Notes: generated by a model from the sequence alone, not told the origin. 64,000 nt of DNA from an uncultured Candidatus Saccharibacteria bacterium (GCA_964643995.1 CAZXUJ010000001.1:5622-69621), one strand, 5' to 3'. Positions 14,916 to 39,868 are shown, numbered from the stretch's first letter. Translations and numbers: made by a program.

Positions 14916-14990
14916 TGGAGCGAGAGACGGGGATCGAACCCGCGACCTCTTCCTTGGCAAGGAAGCGTTCTACCACTGAACTACTCTCGC
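14916..14990 (-). tRNA. tRNA-Gly (anticodon GCC)
   Basis: Reverse complement GCGAGAGTAGTTCAGTGGTAGAACGCTTCCTTGCCAAGGAAGAGGTCGCGGGTTCGATCCCCGTCTCTCGCTCCA; anticodon stem CTTCC/GGAAG, loop TTGCCAA. Confidence 0.85.
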
Positions 14991-15047
14991 GAGCAAAGCG
15001 AGTGAGAGGTAGTGATGTACTCATCACGTCACTCTCGCAATCAAGCT
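14991..15047 (-). promoter_or_regulatory. Conserved structured leader/upstream element of tRNA-Gly(GCC) (hairpin GTGATG-TACT-CATCAC)
   Basis: Immediately 5' of the tRNA on the minus strand. Homologous element at 39809-39868 upstream of tRNA-Gly(CCC) with a compensatory T:A to C:G change. Confidence 0.45.
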
Positions 15048-17140: not shown

Positions 17141-18085
17141 CTACCTACTTACAACGTCTTCCGGGAGAGGTACATAGGTTGTACCAATGCTTCCAATACC
17201 CTCAATTGCGATGTAAGCGTTTTCACGTGGAATTGTCATGTAGCGCCCGGAATCACCTTCGCTGACAATTGAAATTCCCTCACGATGAGTCGCTACATCT
17301 AAGCAACTGGCGCCTTCGCCACATCCTGAGGAACCTACATAAAAACTTACCCCTGCGCGCTCAAAACTTGCAAAACCCGATTTGTAGTTCGCGCTTTCAA
17401 GCCAAAGCCAATCACCGGTGTAGGTGATGGTGAAGAAGTACCTCTCTTGGTTTCTTTCTCCCTCACTTGGGAATGTTTCAACCAAAAGCTCTATGATCGA
17501 GAAAACCGGCAATTCAACGAAGAATCTTCTGCCTGATGCAACCACGTAATTGTCAATGGTCGCATCATAGAGCGTTAAGTCAGCATTAGCAGTCAAGGTC
17601 ACATCGAGTAAAAAGGTCCCCTCGTCGAGGCCAAACTCCAAACCAGCGGGCAACCAGTTTTGCCCGATTTTGTTATCCAGATGGGCGTAAACTTCGATTT
17701 CACCCCACCGATAACCCCCATTAGGTAAACCGTTATGCAAGTACTGCTCCCAGCTGACTCTGATAGTTTCCTCGTCTAGGCTGGACAAGCGCAAACCATT
17801 TTGCGTCTCCTCCCACTGTGTGTAAACTTCAACATCACAGGTTTGGTGCTCGTAAGGAACTTGATCCCCATCACCCTTAATTTGAACTACACAGGGTGTG
17901 CTGGTAGGCGTTTCGGTTGGGGTATTGGTTGGCGTGCTTGTCGGCGTTTCGGTAGGGGTATTGGTTGGTGTGCTTGTCGGCGTTTCGGTTGGGGTATTGG
18001 TTGGTGTTTGAACACTCTCAGGACAGCCGCAGGCACTGAAAAACAATACCATAAATACAAAACTAATAACCAATTTCTTAGACAT
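17141..18085 (-). CDS. Lipoprotein/secreted protein with Thr-Pro tandem-repeat linker
   Basis: Signal peptide plus Cys (LFFSACGC); PTNTPTETPTSTP x3 encoded by a 36-bp tandem repeat; globular C-terminal domain unknown. Confidence 0.6.
   Translation of the reverse strand: MSKKLVISFVFMVLFFSACGCPESVQTPTNTPTETPTSTPTNTPTETPTSTPTNTPTETPTSTPCVVQIKGDGDQVPYEHQTCDVEVYTQWEETQNGLRLSSLDEETIRVSWEQYLHNGLPNGGYRWGEIEVYAHLDNKIGQNWLPAGLEFGLDEGTFLLDVTLTANADLTLYDATIDNYVVASGRRFFVELPVFSIIELLVETFPSEGERNQERYFFTITYTGDWLWLESANYKSGFASFERAGVSFYVGSSGCGEGASCLDVATHREGISIVSEGDSGRYMTIPRENAYIAIEGIGSIGTTYVPLPEDVVSR
17895..18010. repeat. 36-bp tandem repeat x ~3.2 (ggtgtgcttgtcggcgtttcggttggggtattggtt), in-frame within CDS 17141-18085
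   Basis: Three near-identical consecutive 36-mers seen directly; encode TPTSTPTNTPTE units on the minus strand. Confidence 0.85.
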
Positions 18086-18581
18086 GTTTTTGTCCTCCGT
18101 ATTGACTGTTGATAAGGATTAGTATTAGCTTCTCCGCCAAGAAGCTAAAGTAACCGCGCTGAATACAAATTATGTATTGTACTCAAAACGGTTACTTCAA
18201 CATAGCGGAACAGCTTAGCTAACAGTAGGTTTTCAATGTTCAGAAACCTTGTTTGCAACAAAATTTCTGACCCCATTTTATACTATAGGTTGTCTGTAGC
18301 TTGAAGTATCTTGAGCCAACCTGACATATTCTGACTAGCGTTTTTTGCTTTAGTTATAAATGAAATTTAAGGTTTATGGAGCACCAGTCGAGTCTGGAAA
18401 CCCACAAGCAAATTATACTCTCCAGGCTAGAAATGAGACAAATAAGACACTATAAAAAAGGGAATGGTTCTATAATTCTCTAGGTTATGCAATTTTGCCG
18501 AGAATCGTTTGGTTAATAGTTTTGTATATAGTATTTAAGCCTCGTCAGTACGTTGTAGCCAGTGATATAATCGCAATTGAA

Positions 18582-20402
18582 ATGAAGTTAACTACCGTTA
18601 AAATAGAAAATTTTAGATCCATAAAAGATCCCATAGAGGTTTACATCGAGGACACTACCACTATTTTTTTAGGTGCTAACGACCACGGCAAAAGCAACTT
18701 GCTCTATGCGATTCAGAAATTAAACGCTGACAAGCCTATTTTAGAAGAAGAACGAAATTGGGATGTGCCTCAAAGTGTAGGTGAGCCACGAATTGAGTGG
18801 TCATTTTCTTTGTCGAATGAAGATAAGGATAGTTTAACAAAGATGTGTGTTCCTGCCGTTGTTAAAGTAGCTGAGAATAAAGATGGTGTGGAGGCTCAGT
18901 CTGCAGAAGTATTGGATGCCACGGTTTATTTAAAAACTAATTCTTTAGGGACACTGACTTTTGAACGTTTGGGAGTCAATACTCCGATTAAGGTGATAAG
19001 CGTTCCTGATGAGTTTGAAATACCCAATTTAGAAGAAAATGAGAGCAAGTTAGTTGCAATGATACCGAATGTGGAGCTTTTTGAATCTCCAGAAATTAAG
19101 GTTATCGATAGTATAACTAGGGAAGAATTGGATAAAAGTGACTTTATGCAGGGTATATTCATGTTGGCAGGAATTTGGGACCAAAAGGATGAGGTGTTTA
19201 ATCAAAATCCCAAAACTGAAAAAATGCTATCCCAAGCTTCTGATAAATTAACCAAGGAGTTAAGGAATACCTGGCAACAAGGATCCAAACTAGAATGGAG
19301 GTTTTCCCACCTTAGAGAGGAAAACCGTATTGGAATAACCATTGGGGATCCTGCTGTTAGCACTACTTTTGTCAAGCCTTCGTTAAGATCGTCTGGTTTT
19401 AAAACATTCTTTTACATTTCAATGACGATTGATGCCCGTTCCAGAAAAAATAATAATGGTCATTTTATATTTATGTTTGATGAGCCAGGTACATATCTTC
19501 ATCCAGCCGCGCAAATAGATTTACAACGTAGCTTTGAAAAGATTGCGGAAAAAAATCAAATTATATATACAACTCACTCCATATTTCTGATAAGTAAAAA
19601 CTACCCGAAGCGAAATAGAGTGGTCTTAAAAACTGATAATGGCACCAAAGTTGATCAGAAGCCTTTTAGAAAGAATTGGAAAGCCGTTAGAGAGTCCCTA
19701 GGTGTTTTATTAAGCAATAACTTTTTAATAGCAGACAAGACTTTATTAGTAGAGGGACCTTCGGACATCGTTTATATTTGGTTAGCGTTGCGAAAACTTA
19801 AAGATGCTGGAAAGGTAGATATAGATTTAAACGATATAAATATGGTAGATGCTAATGATAAAAGAAATTATATCTTAATGGCGAAGTTGATGTTAACCGA
19901 GGGTAGAAAGGTTACTGCATTAGTGGATGGTGACGATGGAGGTAAAAGTATTCAGGATGATTTAAAGAAGCTATGTGGTGGAGAGTTGAAAAGTAAAGAC
20001 CTCAAGCCGTTCATTTTGGAAAGCAATAAATCTATAGAAAATGTTTTGGCGGATGTAGACACATTAAAGATTGCGGCAAAACAAGTCGCTACAGAGCTTG
20101 TGGGCGCTGGGTTACTTGCATATAAATCTGGTGTGGCTATTGATACTGCGGTTAACGATATTAAGGAGGATTCCAGTGTGACGTTAGGTAAGACCCTAGA
20201 AAATGTTACAGGTACATGGTTTGAAAACGAGCAATCTTTATCAAAATTGCAGGTAGCAATGAAGTATGAGGACATTGTTCTTAGTGGTGGCGGAAACATA
20301 AACGAACGTTCCGCGGAAACATGGTTTAAGAGACTTCAAAAAGAGATGGAACTACGTAGTGAAAAAGAGCCAGAAAGCGGAGTTATAGATCAAATAGATT
20401 AG
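18582..20402 (+). CDS. OLD-family (overcoming lysogenization defect) ATP-dependent nuclease: N-terminal ABC-type ATPase + C-terminal TOPRIM
   Basis: MKLTTVKIENFRSIKDP...FLGANDHGKSNLLYAI (OLD N-terminus/Walker A); FMFDEPGTYLHPAAQ...IIYTTHS (Walker B, H-loop); C-term LLVEGPSDIVYIW (TOPRIM). Start set to Met at 18582; ORF extends to 18495. Confidence 0.8.
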   Translation: MKLTTVKIENFRSIKDPIEVYIEDTTTIFLGANDHGKSNLLYAIQKLNADKPILEEERNWDVPQSVGEPRIEWSFSLSNEDKDSLTKMCVPAVVKVAENKDGVEAQSAEVLDATVYLKTNSLGTLTFERLGVNTPIKVISVPDEFEIPNLEENESKLVAMIPNVELFESPEIKVIDSITREELDKSDFMQGIFMLAGIWDQKDEVFNQNPKTEKMLSQASDKLTKELRNTWQQGSKLEWRFSHLREENRIGITIGDPAVSTTFVKPSLRSSGFKTFFYISMTIDARSRKNNNGHFIFMFDEPGTYLHPAAQIDLQRSFEKIAEKNQIIYTTHSIFLISKNYPKRNRVVLKTDNGTKVDQKPFRKNWKAVRESLGVLLSNNFLIADKTLLVEGPSDIVYIWLALRKLKDAGKVDIDLNDINMVDANDKRNYILMAKLMLTEGRKVTALVDGDDGGKSIQDDLKKLCGGELKSKDLKPFILESNKSIENVLADVDTLKIAAKQVATELVGAGLLAYKSGVAIDTAVNDIKEDSSVTLGKTLENVTGTWFENEQSLSKLQVAMKYEDIVLSGGGNINERSAETWFKRLQKEMELRSEKEPESGVIDQID

Positions 20403-20449
20403 ACATTCATAGTCGTTTAACTATTCATCTTTACTCGTATACTCTAAAT

Positions 20450-22231
20450 TTACTTTCTATTTTCCTCATTTTTCTTTACACTCAACATTAAACTTTTCTT
20501 TTCATCTGACCAGTACAGTTTTATATCCTTCTCTTTTTTAGGCGGATACTTTTCTAAAAAATCTTTGTTCTCGGCTACCATAAAAACCTTACAATATATG
20601 GAACCTTTAATATCTTTCAGCTGCCTTGCTTTTAAAAACCCTTGTCTAACAAGTTTATCCCTAGTAGATGGATGTACACTATAGTCCGACTGTATCTGCC
20701 AATCTGATATCCACTGGCCTTCATTACTATAAACATGTTTTAGATCATGCGGTATAACGCCTTCCTTAATATTTCTCCAACAATCAGCACATCTAATACC
20801 GTCAAGATTCCACCACATTTTGTCGCCTGCGAAGGATCTTCCGCATATTCCACAGGTATAGCTTCCACCATCAGATACCTCAAGGAAGAAACCCTCGGGC
20901 TCTTTTTCCAATCTTCGCTTACGAATATTTTCTATGGCATCAAACTTTCCCATATGCCTTGCCAGTTGCACAATATTGTTTAGTTCCAAATGTGATCTTT
21001 TATTAGGGTCGCTAATTGGGTTTGGTTCTTCCTTAATTTTCCCAGTTATCGTTATTAAATCTTCCTCACGCTCGTAGCCTTTAAGTTTTCCGGATATAAA
21101 TCCAAGCCTATTTGATAAACCCTCTGGCATTAACCGCCAATTAGTTTTTTCAAGTGTATCTTTAATGAGTTTTTGAAGATCATACATGCTTACACGCTTA
21201 TTCCTCTGAGTTTCAGTTTCCTGAAATGAAAACGGAACAATTACAAACTGACCCATCTCAGGTTTATCGAGTGAAAATTTAACATAGCCTTGTTTTTCAA
21301 AAAGGGGAGTTAGGAGCTTTTCAAGTTCTCCGATTCCAAGCTTTTTAATTTTGGAAACCTGCTCATAAACTGGATTATCGTATTTACGCATCTCATCGTC
21401 ATGCGCAAACTTGGAATATTCCAATGCTTCTAATATTTCGAGGTTTTCTTGACCCTGTTTATCATCAAGGCAGTATTCCGCACGGTATTTTTCCAAAAGC
21501 GCTTTGTTTTCAGCTTCTTCTTTCGCCCGTTCTTCATCTTTTTTACTAAAATCATCTACGTCAATATCTTTATAACCGCAGGAAGCACATTTGGTAGTCC
21601 ATGTAATGACTTTATCCTTAACTTTAGTTGTGACTTTTACTTCTTTACCGCATTTAGGGCAAAGATTTGGTTTTGGAACATAAACTTCTCCGTTATCATA
21701 AATAGCTTGGCGTTTCTTACAGGCAGAACAGTCAAACATGAAACAAACCCGCATCGGGGTATCCGTATAATCCTCAAGGACTTTAGAACTGTAGCTCATT
21801 TGAGTGTTGCATTTTGGGCATATAACATTTTTTGGTTCTGTCGCGTTATCGTAATAATCCTGCTTGGCTTTATCCTCAGCCATTATTTTCTCAATAAAAT
21901 CCTTTTTTCTTTTATATTCGTTTGTTTTAACTACAAATAAATGCCTGCCTAAAATAAGGCCAAAATCATGTTCTTTTTTCTCATCTGTTAAGGATTTAAG
22001 TTCGGGATCGTTAAAGTGTTCTTTGTATGCTTTTCGCCAAAATTCTATTGTGCGTAGACATTCGCGTATGGTTGAGAGGTCGTATATATCTATGTAGTAT
22101 TGCTCGGGTTTTAGATATTCCACTAAAAACAATATACTACTTTCTAATGTGAGTAGAATATTCACGATTTTCTTATAAAAAACTCGTGTTATTCTGGTAA
22201 TATAAGTTAAGATGACAAAATCAGAAGACAT
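20450..22231 (-). CDS. Large multi-zinc-ribbon protein, unknown function (start uncertain)
   Basis: At least three C-x2-C...C-x2-C pairs (CPKCNTQM...CSACKK; CPKCGKE...CASCGY; CGICGRS...CADCWRN). Convergent with OLD gene, divergent from MTase. First ATG would overlap the MTase start by 20 bp, so the true start may be an internal Met (e.g. ~21883) or a non-ATG start. Confidence 0.45.
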   Translation of the reverse strand: MSSDFVILTYITRITRVFYKKIVNILLTLESSILFLVEYLKPEQYYIDIYDLSTIRECLRTIEFWRKAYKEHFNDPELKSLTDEKKEHDFGLILGRHLFVVKTNEYKRKKDFIEKIMAEDKAKQDYYDNATEPKNVICPKCNTQMSYSSKVLEDYTDTPMRVCFMFDCSACKKRQAIYDNGEVYVPKPNLCPKCGKEVKVTTKVKDKVITWTTKCASCGYKDIDVDDFSKKDEERAKEEAENKALLEKYRAEYCLDDKQGQENLEILEALEYSKFAHDDEMRKYDNPVYEQVSKIKKLGIGELEKLLTPLFEKQGYVKFSLDKPEMGQFVIVPFSFQETETQRNKRVSMYDLQKLIKDTLEKTNWRLMPEGLSNRLGFISGKLKGYEREEDLITITGKIKEEPNPISDPNKRSHLELNNIVQLARHMGKFDAIENIRKRRLEKEPEGFFLEVSDGGSYTCGICGRSFAGDKMWWNLDGIRCADCWRNIKEGVIPHDLKHVYSNEGQWISDWQIQSDYSVHPSTRDKLVRQGFLKARQLKDIKGSIYCKVFMVAENKDFLEKYPPKKEKDIKLYWSDEKKSLMLSVKKNEENRK

Positions 22232-23057
22232 TAAAATTAATCAAATAATTCTTGGGGATTGCATAACAGGTATGGAAAAACTACCTGATAGGTCAGTTGA
22301 CTTAGTGATTGCTGATCCCCCTTACAATGTATCAAAAGGTAACAAATGGAAGTGGGATAACAGCGTTAAATTACAGGGATTTGGTGGAAATTGGAATAAA
22401 ACCATGGAAGATTGGGACAACATGTCACTTCAAGATTATTGGAGTTTCACTGAAGCTTGGTTAAATCAGGTTTGTAGAGTGTTGAAACCCTCGGGGTCTC
22501 TTTGGGTATATGGAACTTATCACAATATTGGAATAATTAATGTAATTATGCAGAAGCTGGGGGTCGAAATGTTAAATGAAATAATATGGTTTAAACGAAA
22601 TTCATTTCCTAATTTATCGGGCAGACGATTTACTGCCAGTCATGAAAATTTGATTTGGGCCCACGTCGGTGGAAAAAAGCGACAGTACTATTTTGATTAC
22701 AAGAAAATAAAGGAAATGCAATTTCCTGAAGACAAGATAAAAACTCCAGGAAAACAGATGAGAACTGTATGGGACATACCAAATAACAAGGAGGCTTCGG
22801 AATTGAAATTTGGAAAACATCCTACCCAGAAGCCGTTGCGTTTATGTAGAAGAATTTTATTAGCAACAAGCAGGCCATCAGACTTGATATTGGTCCCATT
22901 CTGCGGTTCTGGAAGTGAATGTGTTGCCGCAAAAATGCTTGATAGGAACTTTATAAGCTTCGAAGTAGATCAGAAATATGTTGATATCGCTAATAAGCGT
23001 ATTGAGAATACTGATGTTAAAGCAAATTTATTTAATCTTTCTTTGGATACTCTATGA
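22212..23057 (+). CDS. DNA amino-methyltransferase, beta-class (N4-cytosine or N6-adenine)
   Basis: Motif IV LVIADPPYNV precedes motif I ILVPFCGSGSECVAAK (beta-class order). Confidence 0.8.
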   Translation: MTKSEDIKINQIILGDCITGMEKLPDRSVDLVIADPPYNVSKGNKWKWDNSVKLQGFGGNWNKTMEDWDNMSLQDYWSFTEAWLNQVCRVLKPSGSLWVYGTYHNIGIINVIMQKLGVEMLNEIIWFKRNSFPNLSGRRFTASHENLIWAHVGGKKRQYYFDYKKIKEMQFPEDKIKTPGKQMRTVWDIPNNKEASELKFGKHPTQKPLRLCRRILLATSRPSDLILVPFCGSGSECVAAKMLDRNFISFEVDQKYVDIANKRIENTDVKANLFNLSLDTL

Positions 23058-23911
23058 ATGAAGTCGGTAAAAAATTAATTCCACCTGTTATTAAGTGGAG
23101 CGGTAGCAAGAGACCTGTTGCTTATCAGTTATCACAGTATTTTCCAGAGACTAAAAGGTTCTTTGATCCATTCGTTGGAGGTGGTTCTATATTACCGTTT
23201 TTCTTTGGTAAAAAGGCTTTTGTTGGTGACGTAATTCCAGAGTTAATATTTCTTTGGGAATCGATTAAAACGGATCCAGACAAAGTTATTAATGAATATA
23301 GAACTAGATGGGAATCACTTAAGAATAATGGATACACTGAGTATTACTCCATTCGGGACACATTTAACGTAACAAGAAATCCTATGGATTTCTTGTTTTT
23401 AAGTAGAACCTGCGTGAACGGTTTGATTAGGTATAACAAAATAGGGGAATTTAATAATTCATTACATCATACACGCTCAGGTATAGATCCCGAACGTTTT
23501 GCCCCTATAATTAAAATGTGGAGCAAATGGATTCAACAAGTGTCGTTTCTCAATCAGGATTATCGATTAACATTAAAGGAAGTTACTAAAGGAGACACGG
23601 TATTTTTAGATCCCCCATATGTGGGTACAAAATCCAGATACATACCTCAAAAATTCGACTATGCAATTTTCTTTGATGAACTTGAGAGGCTAAACAGCAC
23701 TGGTGTTAACTGGATTCTCACCTTAGACGGTAATGCAGGGGATAGATATTATGATAGCAAGATTCCAAAAGAATTATATAAGGCCAGTATTAAGGTAAAT
23801 ACAGGAAAGTCACCGTTTTCAAAAGTAATGAATAATAAACAAGACAGTATTAGCGAATCAGTGTACTTCAACTTTCAACCAATTGCCAAAATGCCTAACG
23901 CGGTTTTGTAA
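23054..23911 (+). CDS. Dam-family (D12 class, alpha) N6-adenine DNA methyltransferase
   Basis: N-term IKWSGSKRP...FDPFVGGGS (motif I) then LDPPYVGTKSRY (motif IV); start overlaps previous MTase stop (ATGA). Confidence 0.8.
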   Translation: MNEVGKKLIPPVIKWSGSKRPVAYQLSQYFPETKRFFDPFVGGGSILPFFFGKKAFVGDVIPELIFLWESIKTDPDKVINEYRTRWESLKNNGYTEYYSIRDTFNVTRNPMDFLFLSRTCVNGLIRYNKIGEFNNSLHHTRSGIDPERFAPIIKMWSKWIQQVSFLNQDYRLTLKEVTKGDTVFLDPPYVGTKSRYIPQKFDYAIFFDELERLNSTGVNWILTLDGNAGDRYYDSKIPKELYKASIKVNTGKSPFSKVMNNKQDSISESVYFNFQPIAKMPNAVL

Positions 23912-25855
23912 AAATGATTCCAACCATTTAGCAGATTCCTTAGTTTTTATATGCAGATGTACCTGTCCATTTTCTATAAACTCCACGCCAACTATTACAT
24001 CAGAGTTACTTTTTGAGTTTGCAATATTCATATCCTCGTATTTTGTATATCTAAAAGCAGCTACCGAGAAAATCTTTTGCTCCTTTTCCTTGTACTCTTT
24101 ATCGAATACTCTCCATGAGACTTCATCTTTTTCTCTATATACATTAGGCCCAGTTCTGGTTAATTCCTTAACATATTTGATAAGTCGGGATCCAATATCC
24201 GTTTCTAACGATACGCTCGTATCTTTAGATTCGATGCTTAAAATATATACTTGGTTATTTGAGTGTTTTATTTGAAAAATATGGTCAGGTCTTTTAGAGA
24301 GTGTACCAGATACACGTGGTAAGGATACCCATCTATACTCGGTACCATCTTCAAAATTAAAGATTGATATACCACTCCAATTACCTCCTGGAGGGTTACA
24401 AAGACCTTCGAAGAAAGTCTCATCTTTATGTAAGTAAAATATTTCATGTAATACCGAATCTACATCGTGTTCGCCAAACTTTTTTGGCATAAAGGTATTA
24501 ATTGGTTTGTCTAATCCTGCTTGTAAGTGTTTCTCATATTTAGTTGGTATAACATACATTACTTTGTCAGATCGTTCTGTTGTTTTAGTGTCCACAATTA
24601 TTGCGTTGCTATAATTTAATACCGCTTGCCAGAGTCCATTTGTTTGAGCCAATTTCCAAATGTTACCAGTAACTTCTTTTAATGTTGTAGTAGGACAAGG
24701 ACCGTAAATTATTGTTAAAACATCGACATCATTTTCTCCTGTTACCATGCGCAAAAGTGGTACTAGTCCTCTGTCCGGTCGTGAGTCATCCCCTCTAGGC
24801 TTGAATCCAGCAACCCACGCTATGAACAATGGTTTCTCTCCATTTTTTATCCAATTTATAGATTCTGCGTCTACCTTTGATCTGTATATTGTTGCTACAA
24901 GCTGACCAAGTTTATGTCGTTCAGTAGTACTTAGCAAGCAAAACGGAAGATCTCCCGAACACACAGCTACAGCCTTGTTATTTGAAACACTTGAAAGCAA
25001 CTTCTTAAATGAATTAGATGTTGGAATTGAAACGCGCTTATTCCATGGTATTCTCTTATCAATAAGTAAATCGGCTATTTGAGATCCTTTGTCAAAGTTC
25101 AACAATTTTTTCCATTCGTTGTCTTGTAATATGCCACCTTTGTTTTTCCTTTGGCTGGCAAGAAACAAAGTGAGTTCCAACGCTTTATTAGCTAAACTTT
25201 CTGCATAGCTGCTGTAATTGTCATTTTCTAGGATAGCTTTGATAAATAGCTGTAGTTCTTTACCAGCAAAGAAACGAGAATATTTTTTGTATAAGTCTGC
25301 AGAAATGGATGGGCTGGGAGAATAAATTGGAAGTGTAATAGTGCTATATCTTTTACCAAGGGATAGGTATGAAAACGGAATGATTGGGTTTGGAAATCTA
25401 GCGGCCTTAGTATTTCTATCTGAATCTAACTCTATACCGCCTAATTCTGCAAAATATAAATACGGTATTTTAGCCTGAGCACTACTAATAGCCCTGCCAC
25501 TTCTTTGCCATGCATTATTACCTGCGGGTAAGGCACCACAAAATTCCATTGATAGGATTGGCTTTTCGATTTGTAACCCATTTTTTTCATATTGCTTCGT
25601 AACTATTGCATCTGTAGCCTCTCTAAGTTTTGCCCCGTTTACTTCTAAAACTGTTTTAATGTCATAATCCCATCTATCGTACCCTGGAAATAGCTGTATC
25701 TCATATCTTATTTCAGAGTTGGAAAGTGAAAATTTTGGAACATAAAGTGGACCATCGATAGGTACAAGTTCAAGCTCCAATGATGAGGAAATAAGCCTTA
25801 GTGCTTCTTCACATTCAAGAATATTATCACCGTAGATATTTAGTTTTGTTACCAT
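23858..25855 (-). CDS. Putative restriction endonuclease (candidate Type IIS-like partner of the two MTases)
   Basis: 665-aa ORF convergent with and overlapping the 3' end of the Dam-like MTase gene. C-terminal PD-x17-ExK-like arrangement: RPDHIFQIKHSNNQVYILSIESKD. No other family signal. Confidence 0.4.
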   Translation of the reverse strand: MVTKLNIYGDNILECEEALRLISSSLELELVPIDGPLYVPKFSLSNSEIRYEIQLFPGYDRWDYDIKTVLEVNGAKLREATDAIVTKQYEKNGLQIEKPILSMEFCGALPAGNNAWQRSGRAISSAQAKIPYLYFAELGGIELDSDRNTKAARFPNPIIPFSYLSLGKRYSTITLPIYSPSPSISADLYKKYSRFFAGKELQLFIKAILENDNYSSYAESLANKALELTLFLASQRKNKGGILQDNEWKKLLNFDKGSQIADLLIDKRIPWNKRVSIPTSNSFKKLLSSVSNNKAVAVCSGDLPFCLLSTTERHKLGQLVATIYRSKVDAESINWIKNGEKPLFIAWVAGFKPRGDDSRPDRGLVPLLRMVTGENDVDVLTIIYGPCPTTTLKEVTGNIWKLAQTNGLWQAVLNYSNAIIVDTKTTERSDKVMYVIPTKYEKHLQAGLDKPINTFMPKKFGEHDVDSVLHEIFYLHKDETFFEGLCNPPGGNWSGISIFNFEDGTEYRWVSLPRVSGTLSKRPDHIFQIKHSNNQVYILSIESKDTSVSLETDIGSRLIKYVKELTRTGPNVYREKDEVSWRVFDKEYKEKEQKIFSVAAFRYTKYEDMNIANSKSNSDVIVGVEFIENGQVHLHIKTKESAKWLESFLQNRVRHFGNWLKVEVH

Positions 25856-26141
25856 ACAAGTCTATCCAATTTAATTGATATCCCAAAAATTTATCAAGAA
25901 ATATTAATTTCACTTTATAGGATATTGCAATATGGCCTTTTTATCAAGGAACTTAGGAAATTTTAAGCGGGATACTAATCTTGCACACTTTTTCGCTAAA
26001 ATAGAATTAATAAGCTTAAAAACTTATTTAAGAAATCTGAACAAAGGCACTTGTCACTTTAGACTTTAGCCATTGAACACGCCAAATGACCAAAAAGCAT
26101 ATGTAAAGTATGTAGTTATTTTTGTGCCTAAAAGGAGGCTT

Positions 26142-27470
26142 ATGGAAGAAAAATTAAATATAGTTTACGTACAAGTTAATAAATTAAACCCTGCCCCATA
26201 TAACCCCAGAAAGTGGGATGAGGACGCGTGTACAAAGTTAAAAGAAAGCCTAACAAAATTTGGCTTTGTTGACCCGCTGATAGTTAACTCGGCTCCAAAT
26301 AGAGAAAACGTGGTCATCGGAGGACACTTCAGGCTCAAAATGGGTATAGAGCTTGGTTTCAAAGAAGTTCCCGTTGTCTACGTTAATATTCCTGAGCTTG
26401 AAAAAGAAAAGGAATTAAACCTAAGACTTAACAAAAACGTTGGTACTTGGGATTTTAAACTATTGGCAGAGTTTGATGCATCGTTACTTGGTGATATTGG
26501 CTTTTCGAGCGAGGAGTTGGACGATATATTTGGAATCGACGATACACCTGAAGAATTCGACCTTCAAAAAGAACTTCAGAAGCTAAATATTCAAAATATT
26601 AATATCAAAAAAGGCGATGTGTATAAGCTTGGTGATAGTAGGCTAATGTGTGGCGACTCTACCGTCGACACAGATGTTCTAAAGCTATTTGGTGATGAAA
26701 AAGCCGATATGTGCTTTACCGACCCACCCTATATTCTTGATTACTTAAAAGGTAAGAAAAAAGCTGGTAATGCAATTACTGGCTTTGGTGCGAAACGTGA
26801 TCGTAGGTACCTTGAAACCGATGTTTTGCCCGATGATTTTACTGAAAAATGGATGGCAAATATTGCAAAGATCCAAAAGGAAAGCTTTTCAATTATTGTT
26901 TATGAAAATTGGAAAAACATACGAACCATTTGGGGCGAAATGGAAAAGTATTGGAAAGTTAAAAATATGATTGTGTGGCATTTACCAAATCGTACCCAAG
27001 GGTTTGCAGGCAAGTATAGATTCTTTTCCAAGCACGATATTGCAATGGTCGGAGCTTCTCCGAATGCCAATATCGATTATAACTTAGAACCCGAAGAAGA
27101 CGGTCTTCAAAACGAATATGAAACAGCACTTTATGCGATTTCAGGTAAACCTCAATGGGAAAGCTATAAGCATGGTAAAAAGTACCAGCCAACGGACTTT
27201 ATTGAGTATGTTGCCTCGGATGAAAAAAGCTCAGGCCAAGGCATCATATTTGGCACGAAACCACTTGAAATACTAATTCCATACATCAAAGTACTTACAA
27301 AACGCGGAGATCTAATTGTTGAACCTTTCGGTGGAAGTGGTTCAACTCTAATTGCGGCTACAAAAATGAACCGCAGATGTTACTTAATGGAAAAGTCGCC
27401 TGTTTATGCTGAAGTTATTAAAAACCGTTGGGAAAAACTTACGGGTCTTAAAGGGGAGCGATTATTATGA
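26142..27470 (+). CDS. ParB-like nuclease domain fused to beta-class DNA amino-methyltransferase (phage-type)
   Basis: N-term ParB/Srx fold (LNPAPYNPRKW...VIGGHFRL); MTase motif IV FTDPPYILDY then motif I VEPFGGSGSTLIAA. Start set to ATG at 26142, which has AGGAGG 6 nt upstream; ORF extends to 26073. Confidence 0.75.
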   Translation: MEEKLNIVYVQVNKLNPAPYNPRKWDEDACTKLKESLTKFGFVDPLIVNSAPNRENVVIGGHFRLKMGIELGFKEVPVVYVNIPELEKEKELNLRLNKNVGTWDFKLLAEFDASLLGDIGFSSEELDDIFGIDDTPEEFDLQKELQKLNIQNINIKKGDVYKLGDSRLMCGDSTVDTDVLKLFGDEKADMCFTDPPYILDYLKGKKKAGNAITGFGAKRDRRYLETDVLPDDFTEKWMANIAKIQKESFSIIVYENWKNIRTIWGEMEKYWKVKNMIVWHLPNRTQGFAGKYRFFSKHDIAMVGASPNANIDYNLEPEEDGLQNEYETALYAISGKPQWESYKHGKKYQPTDFIEYVASDEKSSGQGIIFGTKPLEILIPYIKVLTKRGDLIVEPFGGSGSTLIAATKMNRRCYLMEKSPVYAEVIKNRWEKLTGLKGERLL

Positions 27471-27886
27471 GTAAAGCAATTGAAGATAGGCAGAAAAAAG
27501 AACGCGCGCTACTTCTTGAAACGTTTAAGAAGACTCCAATTATTCAACTGGCTTGCGAAAAGTCTGGTGTTGGCAGAGCAACATACTATCGATGGCGACA
27601 TGAAGATTCCGAATTTGCACTTCAAGCAGATTTGGCTTTAGAGGAAAGCGTGGGGCTTATGAATGACCTTGCCGAATCTCAGCTTTTATCTGCGATAAAA
27701 GAAAAAAACATTACAGCTATTATATTTTGGCTTAAGAATAGACATAAGGCTTATACAAACAGGGTTGAAATAAATGCAAAAGTAGAATCAAAAAATGCGG
27801 AACTTAGCCCAGAACAAGAAGATCTAATAAAAAAAGCGCTTGGCTTATCAAGCATTGTTGCAAGCGGAGGTACGAAGGATGATTAA
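27467..27886 (+). CDS. Phage terminase small subunit-like HTH protein
   Basis: 139 aa, HTH IQLACEKSGVGRATYYRWRHEDSEF, immediately upstream of and overlapping terL; ATGA overlap with previous gene. Confidence 0.5.
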   Translation: MSKAIEDRQKKERALLLETFKKTPIIQLACEKSGVGRATYYRWRHEDSEFALQADLALEESVGLMNDLAESQLLSAIKEKNITAIIFWLKNRHKAYTNRVEINAKVESKNAELSPEQEDLIKKALGLSSIVASGGTKDD

Positions 27887-29396
27887 CTCCAGTTTATGCA
27901 CGGATGATATTGATAAGATAGTAAAAGACCCTAAGGTCAGAAAAGAACTAACCCGCAAAAGTCATTATTTGTTTTTCCATATTTACTTTGCTAGGTACGT
28001 CAAATATCCAACAGCTGATTTTCAAAAAGAAATATTTGAGCTGACTGAAAAGCCAGACGCGATGCTGTATGAAATCATTGCTTTTAGGGGTTCTGCTAAG
28101 TCTACAATAATGTCGTTATCACTCCCGATTTGGTCACTTATTAATGAGTCACAGAAGAAATATATTTTGCTTTTGAGCCAAACTCAGCAACAGGCTAGGC
28201 AAGCGTTAATCAATATAAAACGAGAGCTTGAAAGTAATGCATTACTTATTAATGACTTTGGACCATTTGATGAGGATAGTGATGAGTGGCGCACTAATTC
28301 ATTAGTTATTCCTAAATTTGATGCTCGAATTTCCGCGGCTTCTACTGGTGAAAGTATTCGAGGTGTAAAGCACGGTGAGTATCGACCTGATTTAATAATC
28401 GCGGACGATGTGGAGGATTTATCATCAGTTAAAACAAAAGAAGGTCGGGATAAAACGTACGATTGGTTTACTGGTGAAATCGTTCCCGCAGGTGATGTAA
28501 ATACTCGAATATTTTTAATTGGTAACCTTCTACATGATGGCTCTTTAATGGTTCAAATTAAAGAACAAATTCTTAGTAAAAAATTACGGGGTATATTCCG
28601 CGAGTACCCATTGGTAAGTGAAGACAAACAAATATTGTGGGCTGGCAAGTTCCCAAACAATGAGGCCATTGAGGCGTTAAAAGCTACAGTACCTAGTGAA
28701 TCAGCCTGGTCACGGGAATATTTGCTTAAAATAATCTACGACGACGATCGAGTCATAAAACCTGAGTGGATTCATAGATACTCCGATTTACCTCAAATAT
28801 CATGGGAAGGTTACCAATATACTGCCGTTGGTGTTGATATTGCAGTTTCTGAAAAAGAGCATGCGGATTATAGTGCAATTGTTGCAGGTATGGTTTTTAA
28901 AAAGAACGGTAATACATCCATTTATATATTGCCCTATCCAGTTAATAAGCATTTAACTTTTCCCGAACTGGAAGAAGCAATCCGTGATTTAGCTAGGTCA
29001 TTACCTACAAAAAGAAAAGTTAAATTATTCATTGAGGACGTTGGGGCTCAAAAAGCATTGGTTCAAAGGCTACAAATGTATGGGTACGATGTAGAAGGCA
29101 TAGTACCTAGGGCTGATAAACGAACTAGACTTGGTTACACGGCACAACCGTTAAAATACAAGACCGTGCAGTTGTGTAAATATGGCTGTGATGAATTAGT
29201 AGACCAGCTAAGCAATTTTGATTATGTAAGGCATGATGATCTTGCTGATGCCTTTTCACTGCTTGTAAATAAGGTTTTAGACGACGCTACAATAAAAAAG
29301 ATACAACCAAATATCCGTGTTCTATCTTCCACTAATAGTTTTAGAACGGTAGGTGGTGGAAGTGCCAACGACGTTGCAAGTTTCTTAAGAAGCTGA
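27879..29396 (+). CDS. Phage terminase large subunit (ATPase + RNase H-like nuclease)
   Basis: Walker A FRGSAKST, Walker B DLIIADDVED, C-terminal nuclease motif GVDIAVSEKEHADYSAIV. Start set at ATG 27879, preceded by GGAGGT. Confidence 0.75.
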   Translation: MINSSLCTDDIDKIVKDPKVRKELTRKSHYLFFHIYFARYVKYPTADFQKEIFELTEKPDAMLYEIIAFRGSAKSTIMSLSLPIWSLINESQKKYILLLSQTQQQARQALINIKRELESNALLINDFGPFDEDSDEWRTNSLVIPKFDARISAASTGESIRGVKHGEYRPDLIIADDVEDLSSVKTKEGRDKTYDWFTGEIVPAGDVNTRIFLIGNLLHDGSLMVQIKEQILSKKLRGIFREYPLVSEDKQILWAGKFPNNEAIEALKATVPSESAWSREYLLKIIYDDDRVIKPEWIHRYSDLPQISWEGYQYTAVGVDIAVSEKEHADYSAIVAGMVFKKNGNTSIYILPYPVNKHLTFPELEEAIRDLARSLPTKRKVKLFIEDVGAQKALVQRLQMYGYDVEGIVPRADKRTRLGYTAQPLKYKTVQLCKYGCDELVDQLSNFDYVRHDDLADAFSLLVNKVLDDATIKKIQPNIRVLSSTNSFRTVGGGSANDVASFLRS

Positions 29397-29427
29397 CTGA
29401 TTTTATAGTATAATTCCTTTATAAAAC

Positions 29428-29560
29428 TAAATCTCAGCGGCGAAACTGAAAATCCTTAAGTCTTTGACTTGAGGTCATCGAACCTAAAAAGGGGCTACCC
29501 TCTAGGGTTCGATGCTTCGCCGCTGAGATACTACAAGGGTAGTCCCTTTTTGTTTGTAGT
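29428..29560 (+). terminator. Multi-stem structured element ending in a rho-independent-terminator-like hairpin + T-tract
   Basis: 14-bp long-range stem ATCTCAGCGGCGAA(29431-44)/TTCGCCGCTGAGAT(29516-29) enclosing hairpins AAGTC-TTT-GACTT and CATCGAACC...GGTTCGATG; then AGGGTAGTCCCTTTTTG. Confidence 0.5.
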
Positions 29561-29657
29561 GTCTTAACATAGCTTAAGATCAAATAAAAGACTTGCCTTT
29601 GATTAGTTTTTGCGTCATCCATTGGCGCTAGTAAAAACTTATTTCAAAGGAGGTCTT

Positions 29658-32322: not shown

Positions 32323-32327
32323 TTACT

Positions 32328-33194: not shown

Positions 33195-33197
33195 ACT

Positions 33198-36479: not shown

Positions 36480-36480
36480 A

Positions 36481-37259: not shown

Positions 37260-37279
37260 GTCATCAATGTGTTGATGAC
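37260..37279. promoter_or_regulatory. Perfect 8-4-8 palindrome GTCATCAA-TGTG-TTGATGAC overlapping the serine recombinase start codon
   Basis: Seen directly; position suggests an operator or recombinase-binding site. Confidence 0.4.
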
Positions 37280-38579
37280 AGAACAAGAAAATAAAAATCT
37301 AAAGTATTGTCTCTATGCTAGAAAATCTACTGAAAGTGATGAACGACAAGCAATGTCAATAGATTCCCAAATCAAAGAAATGATGGAACAGGCTAACAAA
37401 GAAGGTCTGAATATTGTTGAAATTCGCCAAGAAAGCCATTCCGCTAAACTTTCAGGGGCTAGGCCAGTGTTTAAACAATTGATCTATGACATAGATAAAG
37501 GATTATTCAATGCAATTCTTACTTGGGCACCAGACAGACTAAGTAGAAACGCAGGAGATTTGGGGGCTTTAGTTGATTTAATGGATCGTAAACAACTTTT
37601 GCACATCAAAACCTATTCCCAGACATTTTCCAACAATCCAAACGAAAAGTTTCTTCTTATGATTCTTTGTTCTCAGGCTAAGCTTGAAAATGATCACAGA
37701 GGTGAAAATGTTAAACGGGGTATTAGAGCAAAATGTGAACGAGGTTGGAGACCCTGCATGTCTCCACTTGGTTATCATAATAGAACGATAAATGGAGTTA
37801 ACGATCTTGTATTAGATGAGGTTAAAGCTCCCATCTTACGGGAAATGTTTGAATTGGTTGCATACTGTGGGTTTAGCGGGCGCTCTGTTAAAAGATATTT
37901 AGATAAGGAAAAGAACTTTCTATCAAGACGGGGCAAAAAGTTAGCGCTTGGGAGACTTTACGAAATTCTTAAAAATCCATTTTACTGTGGGGATTTTGAA
38001 TATCCTGTTGGAAGTGGAAACTGGTACAAAGGAAAACACGAACCCCTAATAACCAGAGAACTATTCAACAAAGTACAAGAAAAGCTGGCCACTTCTGATA
38101 AACCAAATTCAGAAAAACATGACTTTCCGTTCACACGAACAATAAGATGTTCAACCTGCGGATCGCACCTTACGGGAGAGGAAAGAACAAAGCAATTAAA
38201 GAATGGAAACAGAGTTAAGTATGTTTATTATCACTGTCTGCGTGGCAAGGACAAAGACTTTGACTGCAAGGAACCCTATATCCGTGAGGATGACCTGGTA
38301 ACACAATTAGTTGAAATTATTAACGAGGTGGAAATCGATAAGGATGCTTTTACTAAACTTTTACAGGAGGAATATACAAGGTTTGCAAAATTTAAAGCTA
38401 TTTTAAACGAAGATTCTCAAAATAATGAAGAAAAGCAAAGGCTAAAAGAAATTGATATTAAAACTTTTGCAAAACACATTTTAAGATTCGGATCTAATCA
38501 GGAAAGAAGGGAAATCTTTACATTAATTAAGCAACCACTTTATCTTAAGAACATGAAACTGTATGTACACATTAACTAG
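37269..38579 (+). CDS. Large serine recombinase (resolvase/invertase catalytic domain + recombinase domain + zinc ribbon)
   Basis: YARKSTESDERQAMSIDSQ (catalytic Ser region), RLSRN, Cys cluster CSTCGSH...YYHC. Annotated start is GTG; alternative ATG at 37275. Confidence 0.8.
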   Translation: MLMTEQENKNLKYCLYARKSTESDERQAMSIDSQIKEMMEQANKEGLNIVEIRQESHSAKLSGARPVFKQLIYDIDKGLFNAILTWAPDRLSRNAGDLGALVDLMDRKQLLHIKTYSQTFSNNPNEKFLLMILCSQAKLENDHRGENVKRGIRAKCERGWRPCMSPLGYHNRTINGVNDLVLDEVKAPILREMFELVAYCGFSGRSVKRYLDKEKNFLSRRGKKLALGRLYEILKNPFYCGDFEYPVGSGNWYKGKHEPLITRELFNKVQEKLATSDKPNSEKHDFPFTRTIRCSTCGSHLTGEERTKQLKNGNRVKYVYYHCLRGKDKDFDCKEPYIREDDLVTQLVEIINEVEIDKDAFTKLLQEEYTRFAKFKAILNEDSQNNEEKQRLKEIDIKTFAKHILRFGSNQERREIFTLIKQPLYLKNMKLYVHIN

Positions 38580-39733: not shown

Positions 39734-39808
39734 TGGAGCGAGGAACGGGGTTCGAACCCGCGACCTCTTCCTTGGGAAGGAAGCATTCTACCACTGAACT
39801 ATCCTCGC
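39734..39808 (-). tRNA. tRNA-Gly (anticodon CCC)
   Basis: Reverse complement GCGAGGATAGTTCAGTGGTAGAATGCTTCCTTCCCAAGGAAGAGGTCGCGGGTTCGAACCCCGTTCCTCGCTCCA; loop TTCCCAA; differs from tRNA-Gly(GCC) at a handful of positions. Confidence 0.85.
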
Positions 39809-39868
39809 AACAAAGTGAAGAGGAGTAGCGATGTACTCATCGCGTCATCCTCGCAACAAAGTGAAATC
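39809..39868 (-). promoter_or_regulatory. Conserved structured leader of tRNA-Gly(CCC) (hairpin GCGATG-TACT-CATCGC) with flanking ~20-nt direct repeat
   Basis: Homolog of 14991-15047. Direct repeat (c/t)atcctcgcaacaaagtgaa at 39802-39821 and 39849-39868. Confidence 0.45.

What the first reader, a model, noticed from the sequence alone, without database searches (positions are those of the whole stretch)
18495..25855. Compact defense locus: standalone OLD-family nuclease + large zinc-ribbon protein + two-MTase restriction-modification cassette
Within about 7.4 kb there is an OLD-family ATPase/TOPRIM nuclease with no adjacent UvrD/GajB-like helicase and no reverse transcriptase or AriA-like partner. 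It is convergent with a 593-aa multi-CxxC protein of no recognisable family. Immediately after, divergently, come a beta-class amino-MTase, an overlapping Dam-like alpha-class MTase and a convergent 665-aa protein with a C-terminal PD...ExK-like motif. The OLD gene's only immediate neighbour is this uncharacterised zinc-ribbon protein, which could mean an undescribed two-gene OLD-associated system or simply a Class-1 OLD lying next to an RM system. Established knowledge: OLD proteins occur as standalone Class 1 (P2 Old), with UvrD (Class 2/Gabija), in retrons, and in PARIS. The pairing with a large Zn-ribbon protein is my inference.
Basis: partly seen in the sequence, partly recalled or inferred. 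Interest (0 to 1): 0.8.

Follow-up and report, generated by a model that had tools for sequence, protein, structure and literature searches.

The report
Defence-gene hotspot around a conserved zinc-ribbon gene
The OLD nuclease and the zinc-ribbon protein are not a two-gene system: the zinc-ribbon gene is a conserved backbone gene of an integrated mobile element of candidate-phyla-radiation bacteria, and the OLD gene and a BsmI-type restriction-modification cassette are swappable defence cargo in the two slots beside it.

Summary
All five genes exist as described; only two start codons need correcting (OLD 18582, 606 aa; zinc-ribbon gene about 22123, 557 aa). The OLD protein has intact, conserved ATPase and TOPRIM residues and no helicase, reverse transcriptase or AriB-type partner, so it is a single-gene, Class-1-type OLD. 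The 665-aa protein is a BsmI homologue with both catalytic sites intact. With its beta- and alpha-class methyltransferases it forms an ordinary BsmI/Mva1269I-type IIS restriction-modification system.

The zinc-ribbon protein belongs to a large uncharacterised Patescibacteria family (about 1000 clusters at 50% identity) with no sequence or fold relative. None of 63 other loci of this family has an OLD of this kind. None of five OLD-homologue loci has the zinc-ribbon gene.

The zinc-ribbon gene instead recurs with a ParB-methylase, small and large terminase and a large serine recombinase. Its immediate neighbours vary: CBASS parts, Shedu, type I restriction, KAP NTPase, Dsr1, PifA. DNA comparison with relatives shows exact cassette replacement on both sides.

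The zinc-ribbon protein's own function is unknown. A conserved non-coding motif at 18397-18483 is also unexplained.

The parts
18582..20402 (+). Single-gene OLD-family nuclease (ABC ATPase plus TOPRIM), 606 aa. It is the cargo of slot B.
   Evidence: Pfam AAA_15 and OLD-like_TOPRIM; PADLOC Old, AriA and GajA. Identical 606-aa protein P0121. Catalytic residues conserved. Best solved relative is the Class 1 Thermus scotoductus OLD 6p74. Absent from all other zinc-ribbon loci.
20450..22123 (-). Conserved zinc-ribbon protein of an uncharacterised Patescibacteria family, about 557 aa. It is the anchor/backbone gene between the two cargo slots.
   Evidence: 360 homologues at about 50% identity over 90% of the length. 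1005 cluster representatives with E<=1e-3. Start inferred from homologues. AF2 model pLDDT 88 with no informative fold match. DNA 82-87% identical to L001 and L006 over 20535-22120.
22212..23057 (+). Beta-class N6/N4 DNA methyltransferase (M1) of the type IIS RM cassette
   Evidence: Pfam N6_N4_Mtase 1e-52. Matches the first half of the fused PADLOC MTase_II model PDLC03302. DPPY at residues 35-38, FxGxG near the C-terminus.
23054..23911 (+). Alpha-class (D12/Dam-like) N6-adenine methyltransferase (M2). Overlaps M1 by 4 bp.
   Evidence: Pfam MethyltransfD12 7e-33. Matches the second half of PDLC03302. Motif I precedes DPPY.
23858..25855 (-). BsmI-family type IIS restriction endonuclease with two catalytic sites, 665 aa
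   Evidence: PADLOC REase_II PDLC03434 1e-130. phmmer hit to BsmI (PDB 9f38) at 6e-91 over residues 5-602. D10, D...E...QR and PD...ExK align with the BsmI catalytic motifs given in PMC11889245.
22124..25960 (.). Cargo slot A, between the zinc-ribbon gene start and the conserved ParB-methylase upstream region. It holds the RM cassette here and a KAP NTPase gene in the close relative L001.
   Evidence: blastn breakpoints window versus L001. Gene tables.
18489..20558 (.). Cargo slot B, between the 3' end of the zinc-ribbon gene and a conserved non-coding motif. It holds OLD here, LexA-like plus DUF2188 plus a DEAD helicase in L001, and five other genes in L006.
   Evidence: blastn breakpoints. 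The motif lies 24 nt to 9 kb downstream of the zinc-ribbon gene, with 0-10 genes between, in other loci.
18397..18483 (-). Conserved non-coding motif: GAGACA / TGTCTCAT-TTGTCTCAT / GAGACA half-sites, then GGTTyCAGACC...GCTCmGCCA. It marks the far edge of slot B. Its function is unresolved.
   Evidence: nhmmer gives 44 hits in 37 sources, always co-oriented with and downstream of the zinc-ribbon gene. It is also widespread without the element in metagenomes. No Rfam or tRNA match.
26073..27470 (+). ParB-N-domain DNA methyltransferase, a backbone gene of the element
   Evidence: Pfam ParB_N plus N6_N4_Mtase; phrog_498. Found in 24 zinc-ribbon loci, 91% identical in L001.
27467..27886 (+). Terminase small subunit, a backbone gene
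   Evidence: Pfam HTH_Tnp_1_2 and PHROG small-terminase families. Found in 20 zinc-ribbon loci.
27840..29396 (+). Terminase large subunit, a backbone gene. No portal or capsid gene follows it.
   Evidence: phrog_38 1e-72. Found in 17 zinc-ribbon loci. In other loci it is followed by the serine recombinase or by cargo, never by portal or capsid genes.
37269..38579 (+). Large serine recombinase, the probable integrase of the element
   Evidence: Pfam Resolvase plus Recombinase plus Zn_ribbon_recom. Homologues in 15 zinc-ribbon loci, 58% identical in L001. DNA similarity to L001.
14916..15045 (-). tRNA-Gly(GCC) plus a 42-nt flank, the left copy of a duplicated tRNA-plus-flank that brackets the 24.8-kb island
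   Evidence: ARAGORN. Direct repeats D2 and D3.
39734..39861 (-). tRNA-Gly(CCC) plus a 42-nt flank, the right copy (91% and 81% identical to the left copy)
   Evidence: ARAGORN. Direct repeats D2 and D3.

Best explanation
The 7.4-kb stretch is a defence-gene hotspot on an integrated mobile element, at least 18.4-38.6 kb of the window. The element sits in a 24.8-kb island between two tRNA-Gly genes of a Patescibacteria (candidate phyla radiation) genome.

It holds three independent units.

(1) A single-gene, Class-1-type OLD nuclease. By analogy with P2 Old, Thermus OLD and Vibrio OLD it would use its ABC ATPase to control a two-metal TOPRIM nuclease that nicks or degrades DNA during phage infection. 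This mechanism is inferred, not shown here.

(2) A BsmI/Mva1269I-type IIS restriction-modification system. A monomeric endonuclease with two different catalytic sites cuts first one and then the other strand at an asymmetric site. Two separate methyltransferases each protect one strand.

(3) Between them, a conserved about 557-aa zinc-ribbon protein. It is a backbone gene of this element family, not a partner of OLD.

Shown here:
- The zinc-ribbon gene travels with the ParB-methylase, terminase small and large subunit genes and a large serine recombinase.
- The sequences on both of its sides are replaced wholesale between close relatives, giving slot A and slot B.
- Across the family these slots hold many different defence systems.

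Inferred:
- The zinc-ribbon protein is a DNA-binding factor (three zinc ribbons, a coiled coil and a possible winged-helix C-terminus) needed for the element's own life cycle. Candidate roles are replication initiation, control of excision, or regulation.
- The element is a satellite-like or cryptic island, because it has terminase genes but no capsid genes.
For: Gene content and motifs.

BsmI homology with both catalytic sites.

OLD has no conserved neighbour in five independent contexts, and in L196 it is solitary among housekeeping genes.

Zinc-ribbon family:
- About 50% identity over the full length in hundreds of Patescibacteria records.
- Two copies in some genomes (L008/L020, L023/L034).
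- Co-occurrence with ParB-MTase (24 loci), TerS (20), TerL (17) and serine recombinase (15).
- TerL is followed by the recombinase or by cargo, never by portal or capsid genes.

Variable neighbours:
- Pfam families: DUF2779, KAP NTPase, SMODS/SAVED, Shedu, type I RM, PLD-SNF2 plus Eco57I-type MTase, RNase_H_2, AAA_13.
- PADLOC hits: CBASS cyclase, E2 and effector, Dsr1, PifA, PDC-S06.

Exact DNA breakpoints against L001 and L006, whose backbone is 80-87% identical while the RM is replaced by a KAP NTPase and OLD by LexA/DUF2188/DEAD-helicase.

OLD and the zinc-ribbon gene are convergent, with stop codons 47 nt apart.
Against: - The function of the zinc-ribbon protein is not shown. No sequence or fold relative was found. 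The winged-helix/excisionase-like reading of its C-terminus rests on faint, non-significant hits.
- In 48 of 61 loci the upstream variable gene is co-oriented and tightly spaced with the zinc-ribbon gene. This could also mean functional coupling to the cargo.
- Only 32 of 61 loci show a hallmark backbone gene within 10 kb. That is partly because contigs and flanks are short.
- The element ends in the window are not defined at base level, and no second copy of the conserved motif was found near the recombinase.
- A glycosyltransferase cluster (30979-37176) lies between TerL and the recombinase, so the element may be composite or decayed.
Confidence: 0.78

Rival explanations
1. OLD and the zinc-ribbon protein form an undescribed two-gene defence system.
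For: They are adjacent, with 47 nt between their stop codons. Neither has another obvious partner. The zinc-ribbon protein has no known function.
Against: No OLD of this family in 61 genome and 2 viral zinc-ribbon loci. No zinc-ribbon homologue in five OLD-homologue loci. The closest relatives of the zinc-ribbon gene carry other genes in the OLD position, with sharp DNA breakpoints. The genes are convergent, so not an operon.
Confidence: 0.03
2. The zinc-ribbon protein is itself defence-related. It would be a conserved sensor, regulator or adaptor that works with whichever variable defence gene lies just upstream, or a stand-alone defence protein.
For: The upstream neighbour is on the same strand in 48 of 61 loci, mostly within -20 to +40 nt. 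Those neighbours are largely defence proteins. KAP NTPase genes of two different clusters abut it in two distant lineages. It is always embedded in defence islands.
Against: About 50% identity across the family while the partners change completely is unusual for a component that must match many different effectors. In the window the upstream gene is divergent and belongs to a self-sufficient RM system. The gene is inherited at DNA level with the ParB-MTase/terminase backbone. No PADLOC model matches it.
Confidence: 0.12
3. The zinc-ribbon gene is an ordinary chromosomal (host) gene of these bacteria, next to which mobile elements and defence islands happen to integrate.
For: The conserved motif downstream of it is widespread in these genomes without any element genes, so it could be a host integration target. 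Only about half of the loci show backbone genes within 10 kb.
Against: Sporadic distribution: 61 loci in a scan of 185,579 species genomes, though that scan was pattern-limited. Two copies in single contigs (L008/L020, L023/L034). In L058 and L065 copies of the motif bracket recombinase, terminase and the zinc-ribbon gene together. Frequent truncated, split or short forms.
Confidence: 0.07

Closest known systems
Class 1 OLD-family nucleases (P2 Old, Thermus scotoductus OLD, Vibrio cholerae OLD)
   Same: N-terminal ABC ATPase plus C-terminal TOPRIM with conserved catalytic residues. Single gene with no UvrD-like helicase, no reverse transcriptase and not split into AriA/AriB. Carried on a mobile element, as P2 old is. 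The best solved relative is the Class 1 TsOLD 6p74. Class definitions come from PMC10568477.
   Different: Only distant sequence similarity to the studied members (E 7e-5 to 6p74). It lies inside a defence island, whereas the review describes Class 1 genes as not proximal to other defence genes. Activity and phage targets are untested.
BsmI / Mva1269I type IIS restriction-modification systems
   Same: The endonuclease aligns with BsmI over about 600 residues, with both catalytic motifs present: N-terminal D...D...E...QR and C-terminal PD...ExK. There are two methyltransferase activities for an asymmetric site. They match the two halves of one fused PADLOC methyltransferase model.
   Different: The endonuclease is a diverged relative of BsmI (HMMER E 6e-91; percent identity was not computed), so the recognition sequence cannot be assumed. 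GAATGC is not significantly depleted in the window (20 observed, 28.7 +/- 5.6 expected). The host is a Patescibacteria genome rather than a Bacillus relative.
Defence hotspots of prophages and phage satellites (P2/P4 hotspots, PICI-borne immune systems). This comparison is from my own knowledge of the literature and was not tested against those sequences.
   Same: Conserved backbone genes bracket positions where unrelated defence systems replace one another between close relatives. The element has an integrase, terminase genes and, in many relatives, a LexA/S24-type repressor, but no capsid genes.
   Different: The backbone genes are unrelated to those of P2, P4 or PICIs. The integrase is a large serine recombinase. 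The element carries both terminase subunits and a ParB-methylase. The anchor gene is a protein family with no known relatives. Mobility and helper dependence are unknown.
Gabija (GajA-GajB), retron-OLD and PARIS
   Same: The OLD-type ATPase-TOPRIM protein matches GajA and AriA models in PADLOC.
   Different: No GajB/UvrD helicase, no reverse transcriptase or ncRNA, and no separate AriB next to it.

Membership tests
OLD family, Class 1 (single-gene) | N-terminal ABC-type ATPase with Walker A, Walker B and H-loop | tested here: met
   AAA_15 1e-26 over residues 30-366 of the ORF. G31-x4-GK37, D300-E301 and H332 are at least 95% conserved among 120 homologues.
OLD family, Class 1 (single-gene) | C-terminal TOPRIM domain with catalytic Glu and DxD | tested here: met
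   OLD-like_TOPRIM 5e-5, above the Pfam cut-off. E391 and D449-G-D451 conserved.
OLD family, Class 1 (single-gene) | No conserved partner gene (no UvrD/GajB helicase, no reverse transcriptase/ncRNA, not split as AriA/AriB) | tested here: met
   Neighbours in the window. Five homologue contexts share no neighbour; one is solitary.
OLD family, Class 1 (single-gene) | ATP-dependent nuclease activity and phage defence by the single gene | not testable with these tools
   Needs biochemistry and plaque assays.
Gabija (Class 2 OLD) | Adjacent GajB (UvrD/PcrA/Rep-like helicase) | tested here: not met
   No helicase domain in any ORF from 15.7 to 29.4 kb.
Retron-associated OLD (Class 3) | Adjacent reverse transcriptase and msr/msd ncRNA | tested here: not met
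   No RT domain. No Rfam hit other than tRNAs in 14-40 kb at E<=0.1.
BsmI-type IIS restriction-modification system | Monomer-type endonuclease homologous to BsmI with two catalytic sites | tested here: met
   phmmer 6e-91 to 9f38 over residues 5-602. D10, TD...E...QR and RPD...ESK align with BsmI D9, 90-PD-X17-E-X12-QR and 527-PD-X17-E-X-K.
BsmI-type IIS restriction-modification system | Methyltransferase activity for each strand of the asymmetric site | tested here: met
   Two complete MTase genes with SAM and DPPY motifs, translationally coupled. They match the two halves of fused model PDLC03302. Strand assignment was not tested.
BsmI-type IIS restriction-modification system | Recognition of GAATGC | tested here: inconclusive
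   Site count 20 versus 28.7 +/- 5.6 expected, no clear avoidance. Specificity cannot be read from a relative this diverged.
Mobile-element defence hotspot | Conserved flanking backbone with unrelated defence cargo at the same position in relatives | tested here: met
   DNA breakpoints versus L001 and L006. Neighbour diversity over 61 loci.
Phage satellite (PICI-like) | Integrase, repressor, replication module and packaging gene(s), no structural genes, helper-phage dependent mobilisation | tested here: inconclusive
   Serine recombinase, TerS and TerL are present and no portal or capsid gene follows TerL. A LexA-like repressor occurs in 19 related loci but not in the window. No recognisable replication gene. 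Helper dependence is not testable.

The most novel reading that the evidence does not exclude
The zinc-ribbon protein is not just a passive backbone gene. It would be a conserved component that functions together with whichever variable defence gene is encoded immediately upstream, as a common sensor, regulator or adaptor of CPR defence islands. Alternatively it binds the conserved TGTCTCA-repeat motif downstream and directs cassette capture at this site. Either reading would define a new organising principle for defence islands in Patescibacteria.
Probability: 0.12. Interest if true: 0.8.

Novelty: new variant of a known kind. Interest (0 to 1): 0.42.

Why it matters
The individual defence genes are ordinary: a Class-1-type OLD and a BsmI-type restriction system. 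What is new is the setting. An unnamed, strongly conserved zinc-ribbon gene marks a position in Patescibacteria mobile elements where very different defence systems are exchanged.

Such an anchor gene is a practical handle for mining defence systems. About half of the neighbouring genes have no known family. The bacteria concerned are uncultured, have tiny genomes and are thought to be poor in known defences.

It also points to a terminase-bearing, capsid-less, serine-recombinase element family in these bacteria that may be satellite-like.

Tried and rejected
- Sequence profile of the zinc-ribbon family against all PDB chains: nothing below E 0.01.
- C-terminal domain alone against PDB and Pfam at permissive thresholds: only faint excisionase, HTH_17 and AbiEi hints, none significant.
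- Retron or other ncRNA next to OLD: none.
- Promoter and terminator scan: no more sites than in shuffles.
- GAATGC avoidance as a test of BsmI specificity: not significant.
- Exact look-up of the window's OLD protein for its source contig: not on record.
- The conserved motif as tRNA, tmRNA or a known RNA family: no ARAGORN or Rfam hit.
- The conserved motif as a structured RNA: RNAalifold gave no consensus structure, and the window copy folds no better than shuffles.
- The conserved motif as the promoter of one conserved gene: its neighbours in 80 metagenome loci share no family.
- The conserved motif as an element-specific att site: weakened because most metagenome copies have no element genes nearby.
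- A second motif copy at the recombinase end of the window element: not found.

Full report
OBSERVATION.

The OLD ORF carries AAA_15 and the OLD-like TOPRIM domain and matches the PADLOC Old, AriA and GajA models. Its TTG start at 18495 is an artefact of ORF extension. The ATG at 18582 gives a 606-aa protein that is identical to a public protein (P0121) and aligns end to end with homologues. Walker A (G31-x4-GK37), Walker B (D300-E301), H332, the TOPRIM Glu (E391) and D449-G-D451 are present and at least 95% conserved in 120 homologues.

The 593-aa ORF has no Pfam or PADLOC family. It has six invariant CxxC pairs. All homologues begin at its residue 36-37, where a GTG lies at 22123, so the gene is about 557 aa (NCBI aa). 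It does not really overlap the methyltransferase start.

The two methyltransferases are beta class (DPPY before FxGxG) and alpha/D12 class, and they overlap by 4 bp.

THE RM CASSETTE. The 665-aa protein is a clear homologue of BsmI: phmmer E 6e-91 to PDB 9f38 over residues 5-602, and PADLOC REase_II at 1e-130.

The BsmI structure paper (PMC11889245) gives two catalytic motifs, 90-PD-X17-E-X12-QR-123 and 527-PD-X17-E-X-K-548, with D9, D91, E109, E470 and D528 binding metal. In the alignment the window protein has the matching residues: GDN...; TD...MEFC...AWQRSGRA; GEHD; RPDH...SIESK. Both sites look intact.

The two methyltransferases match the two halves of one fused type II methyltransferase model (PDLC03302). 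That is what an asymmetric site needs. This is a complete, known kind of type IIS system.

Its specificity cannot be read from the sequence. GAATGC is not clearly avoided in the window (20 observed, 28.7 +/- 5.6 expected).

THE ZINC-RIBBON PROTEIN IS A CONSERVED FAMILY. A word-indexed search returned 360 proteins, most about 550 aa and about 50% identical over about 90% of the length. Nearly all come from Patescibacteria/CPR records such as Woesebacteria, Shapirobacteria and Levyibacteriota. An exhaustive profile search found 1005 cluster representatives with E<=1e-3 and 375 with E<=1e-30. They include a more diverse short form of about 360 aa that lacks the C-terminal module.

An AlphaFold2 model built on 121 sequences is confident (pLDDT 88, pTM 0.69). 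Its parts, in order, are:
- a long helical hairpin;
- a double zinc-ribbon beta module;
- a coiled coil;
- a small alpha/beta domain;
- a third zinc ribbon;
- a C-terminal helix-strand domain.

IS IT A PARTNER OF OLD? No.

I collected 61 genome loci and 2 viral loci of the family with up to 10 kb on each side. BLAST and an HMM built from 120 OLD homologues find no OLD of this family in any of them. The nearest things are a distant ATPase-only gene and one distant OLD-like gene, each 6-8 kb away inside type I RM operons of the viral contigs.

Conversely, five independent contexts of OLD homologues (45-50% identical) contain no zinc-ribbon homologue:
- next to PLD-SNF2, an MmeI-type MTase and GmrSD;
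- next to a serine recombinase;
- next to NERD and Mrr genes;
- solitary among housekeeping genes;
- next to GmrSD and transposases.

These contexts share no other partner either. The two window genes are also convergent. OLD here is a single-gene, Class-1-type OLD as the classes are defined in PMC10568477.

WHAT THE ZINC-RIBBON GENE TRAVELS WITH. Clustering of all neighbours shows a recurrent backbone:
- a ParB-N-domain methyltransferase (24 loci);
- terminase small subunit (20 loci);
- terminase large subunit (17 loci);
- a large serine recombinase (15 loci);
- often a LexA/S24-type repressor (19 loci).

All of these except the repressor are present in the window (26073-29396 and 37269-38579). 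After TerL there is never a portal or capsid gene, only the recombinase or more cargo. The element therefore looks like a satellite-like or cryptic island rather than a full prophage (inference). Several genomes hold two copies of the family, which argues against a housekeeping gene.

THE NEIGHBOURS VARY AND ARE DEFENCE GENES. The gene just upstream is on the same strand in 48 of 61 loci, usually within a few tens of bases, but it belongs to many unrelated families:
- Pfam: DUF2779, KAP NTPase, SMODS and SAVED, Shedu, HsdR/HsdM, PLD-SNF2 with an Eco57I-type MTase, RNase_H_2, AAA_13, Endonuclease_NS, Schlafen-AlbA.
- PADLOC: CBASS cyclase, E2 and effector, Dsr1, PifA, PDC-S06, type I REase.

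DNA comparison with the closest relatives makes the point exactly. L001 and L006 have zinc-ribbon proteins 84% and 88% identical to the window's. The segments conserved at 77-87% are:
- the zinc-ribbon gene (window 20535/20559-22120);
- the ParB-methylase region (25961-27749);
- the post-TerL region (29401-30555);
- the recombinase (37299-38081);
- a short non-coding segment (18373-18488).

What lies between these segments is unrelated. Window 22121-25960 holds the RM cassette where L001 has a KAP NTPase (slot A). Window 18489-20558 holds OLD where L001 has LexA, DUF2188 and a DEAD helicase, and L006 has five other genes (slot B). OLD and the RM system are thus independent, exchangeable cargo on either side of a conserved anchor.

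ISLAND LIMITS. A tRNA-Gly(GCC) with a 42-nt flank (14916-15045) is repeated as tRNA-Gly(CCC) with flank (39734-39861), 24.8 kb away. Everything discussed lies between them.

Other genes inside this interval:
- A glycosyltransferase cluster (30979-37176) sits between TerL and the recombinase. It has homologues next to the zinc-ribbon gene in L019, so it is probably further cargo.
- Genes 15754-17028 (winged-helix regulator) and 17141-18085 (secreted TPT-repeat protein) have no counterpart in related loci. They may be host genes or another insertion.

AN UNEXPLAINED CONSERVED MOTIF. The non-coding segment at 18397-18483 (zinc-ribbon strand) is found in 37 sources. In those loci it is always intergenic, always co-oriented with the zinc-ribbon gene, and 24 nt to 9 kb downstream of it with 0-10 genes between.

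Its anatomy:
- GAGACA / TGTCTCAT-TTGTCTCAT / GAGACA half-sites.
- Then, at spacings stepping by about 11 nt, GGTTyCAGACC-N5-TGCTCmGCCA.

In L058 and L065 copies bracket the whole element, as att repeats would. However, an exact 23-mer of it has more than 120 hits in metagenome contigs, most of them without any element gene nearby. It also sits upstream of unrelated genes, and in at least one locus (L076) upstream of a tRNA gene. So it is a widespread multi-copy sequence of these bacteria.

It matches no Rfam family or tRNA and shows no consensus fold. Candidate roles are an integration target of the serine recombinases, a conserved promoter/operator with leader (the window copy has TTGTCT-18-TATAAT), or a small RNA gene. 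I could not decide between these.

VERDICT.

The locus is a defence hotspot on a serine-recombinase element of a Patescibacteria genome. It holds a Class-1-type OLD, a BsmI-type RM system and, between them, a conserved anchor gene of unknown function. That gene most likely serves the element itself as a DNA-binding replication, excision or regulatory factor (inference, moderate confidence).

The residual novel possibility is that the anchor protein cooperates with whatever defence gene lies upstream. Its tight co-orientation with upstream cargo keeps this open, and I rate it at about 0.12.

Noticed in passing
window 18397-18483 (minus strand); also L001 15942-16030, L013 11727-11779, L058 2294-2337 and 13631-13669, and 80 metagenome loci L075-L154: Conserved non-coding motif with four TGTCTCA/GAGACA half-sites, followed 20-95 nt later (in steps of about 11 nt) by GGTTyCAGACC-N5-TGCTCmGCCA. 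It is always downstream of and co-oriented with the zinc-ribbon gene, but it is also a widespread multi-copy sequence in CPR metagenomes with no element nearby. No Rfam or tRNA match. Its role (att target, promoter/operator with leader, or small RNA) is unresolved.
   Followed up: partly
window 14916-15045 and 39734-39861: tRNA-Gly(GCC) and tRNA-Gly(CCC), each with a similar 42-nt flank, bracket a 24.8-kb island. The island contains the whole defence locus, the terminase genes, a glycosyltransferase cluster and the serine recombinase.
   Followed up: partly
window 26073-29396 and 37269-38579; L001, L031, L040, L058, L065: ParB-methylase, TerS and TerL are followed by a large serine recombinase with no portal, capsid or tail genes. 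This suggests a terminase-bearing, capsid-less (satellite-like?) element family in Patescibacteria.
   Followed up: partly
L001 7207-10011 and L004 7881-9983: KAP-family P-loop NTPase genes of two different clusters abut or overlap the start of the zinc-ribbon gene in two distant lineages (zinc-ribbon proteins 84% and 50% identical to the window's). This is the only neighbour type seen to recur at that exact position.
   Followed up: partly
L067 3939-5972 and L197 3866-4879: A GmrSD_N (DUF262) protein lies immediately upstream of the OLD homologue in 2 of 5 independent OLD contexts. This is a possible recurrent association and was not examined further.
   Followed up: no
window 30979-37176; L019 9630-13655: A glycosyltransferase/NUDIX-glycosyltransferase cluster lies inside the island between TerL and the recombinase. 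It has 45-50% identical homologues next to the zinc-ribbon gene of L019, so it seems to move with these elements.
   Followed up: no
window 17141-18085 (minus); repeats at 17895-18007: A 314-aa protein with a signal-peptide-like N-terminus, a Cys, and (TPTNTPTETPTS)n repeats encoded by a 12-nt periodic DNA repeat. It has no homologue in related loci.
   Followed up: no
L074 (IMGVR_UViG_3300020195_001307), motif copies at 5259 and 14376: A 26-kb 'viral' contig is built of a 9.1-kb unit repeated in tandem: TerL, TerS, ParB-methylase, two unknown genes, the motif, then NUDIX, ribonucleotide reductase and a PfkB kinase. The unit is 92-98% identical at protein level to part of L040 and has no zinc-ribbon gene. 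It may be a concatemer, a circular form or an assembly artefact.
   Followed up: no
L046-L058, L072; A short form of the zinc-ribbon family (about 360 aa) has the helical hairpin, double zinc ribbon, coiled coil and alpha/beta domain but lacks the C-terminal zinc ribbon and helix-strand domain. It is more diverse than the long form and sits in the same kind of neighbourhood.
   Followed up: no
window 38572-39513 (minus): A DUF3644 protein is encoded directly after, and overlapping the end of, the serine recombinase gene, at the right edge of the island. Its function is unknown.
   Followed up: no
L071 2233-3699 and L072 2014-3726: Distant OLD/ABC-ATPase genes (the same PHROG 4747 as the window OLD) are embedded within type I RM operons, between hsdM and hsdS or after hsdR, in the two viral contigs that carry a zinc-ribbon homologue.
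   Followed up: no
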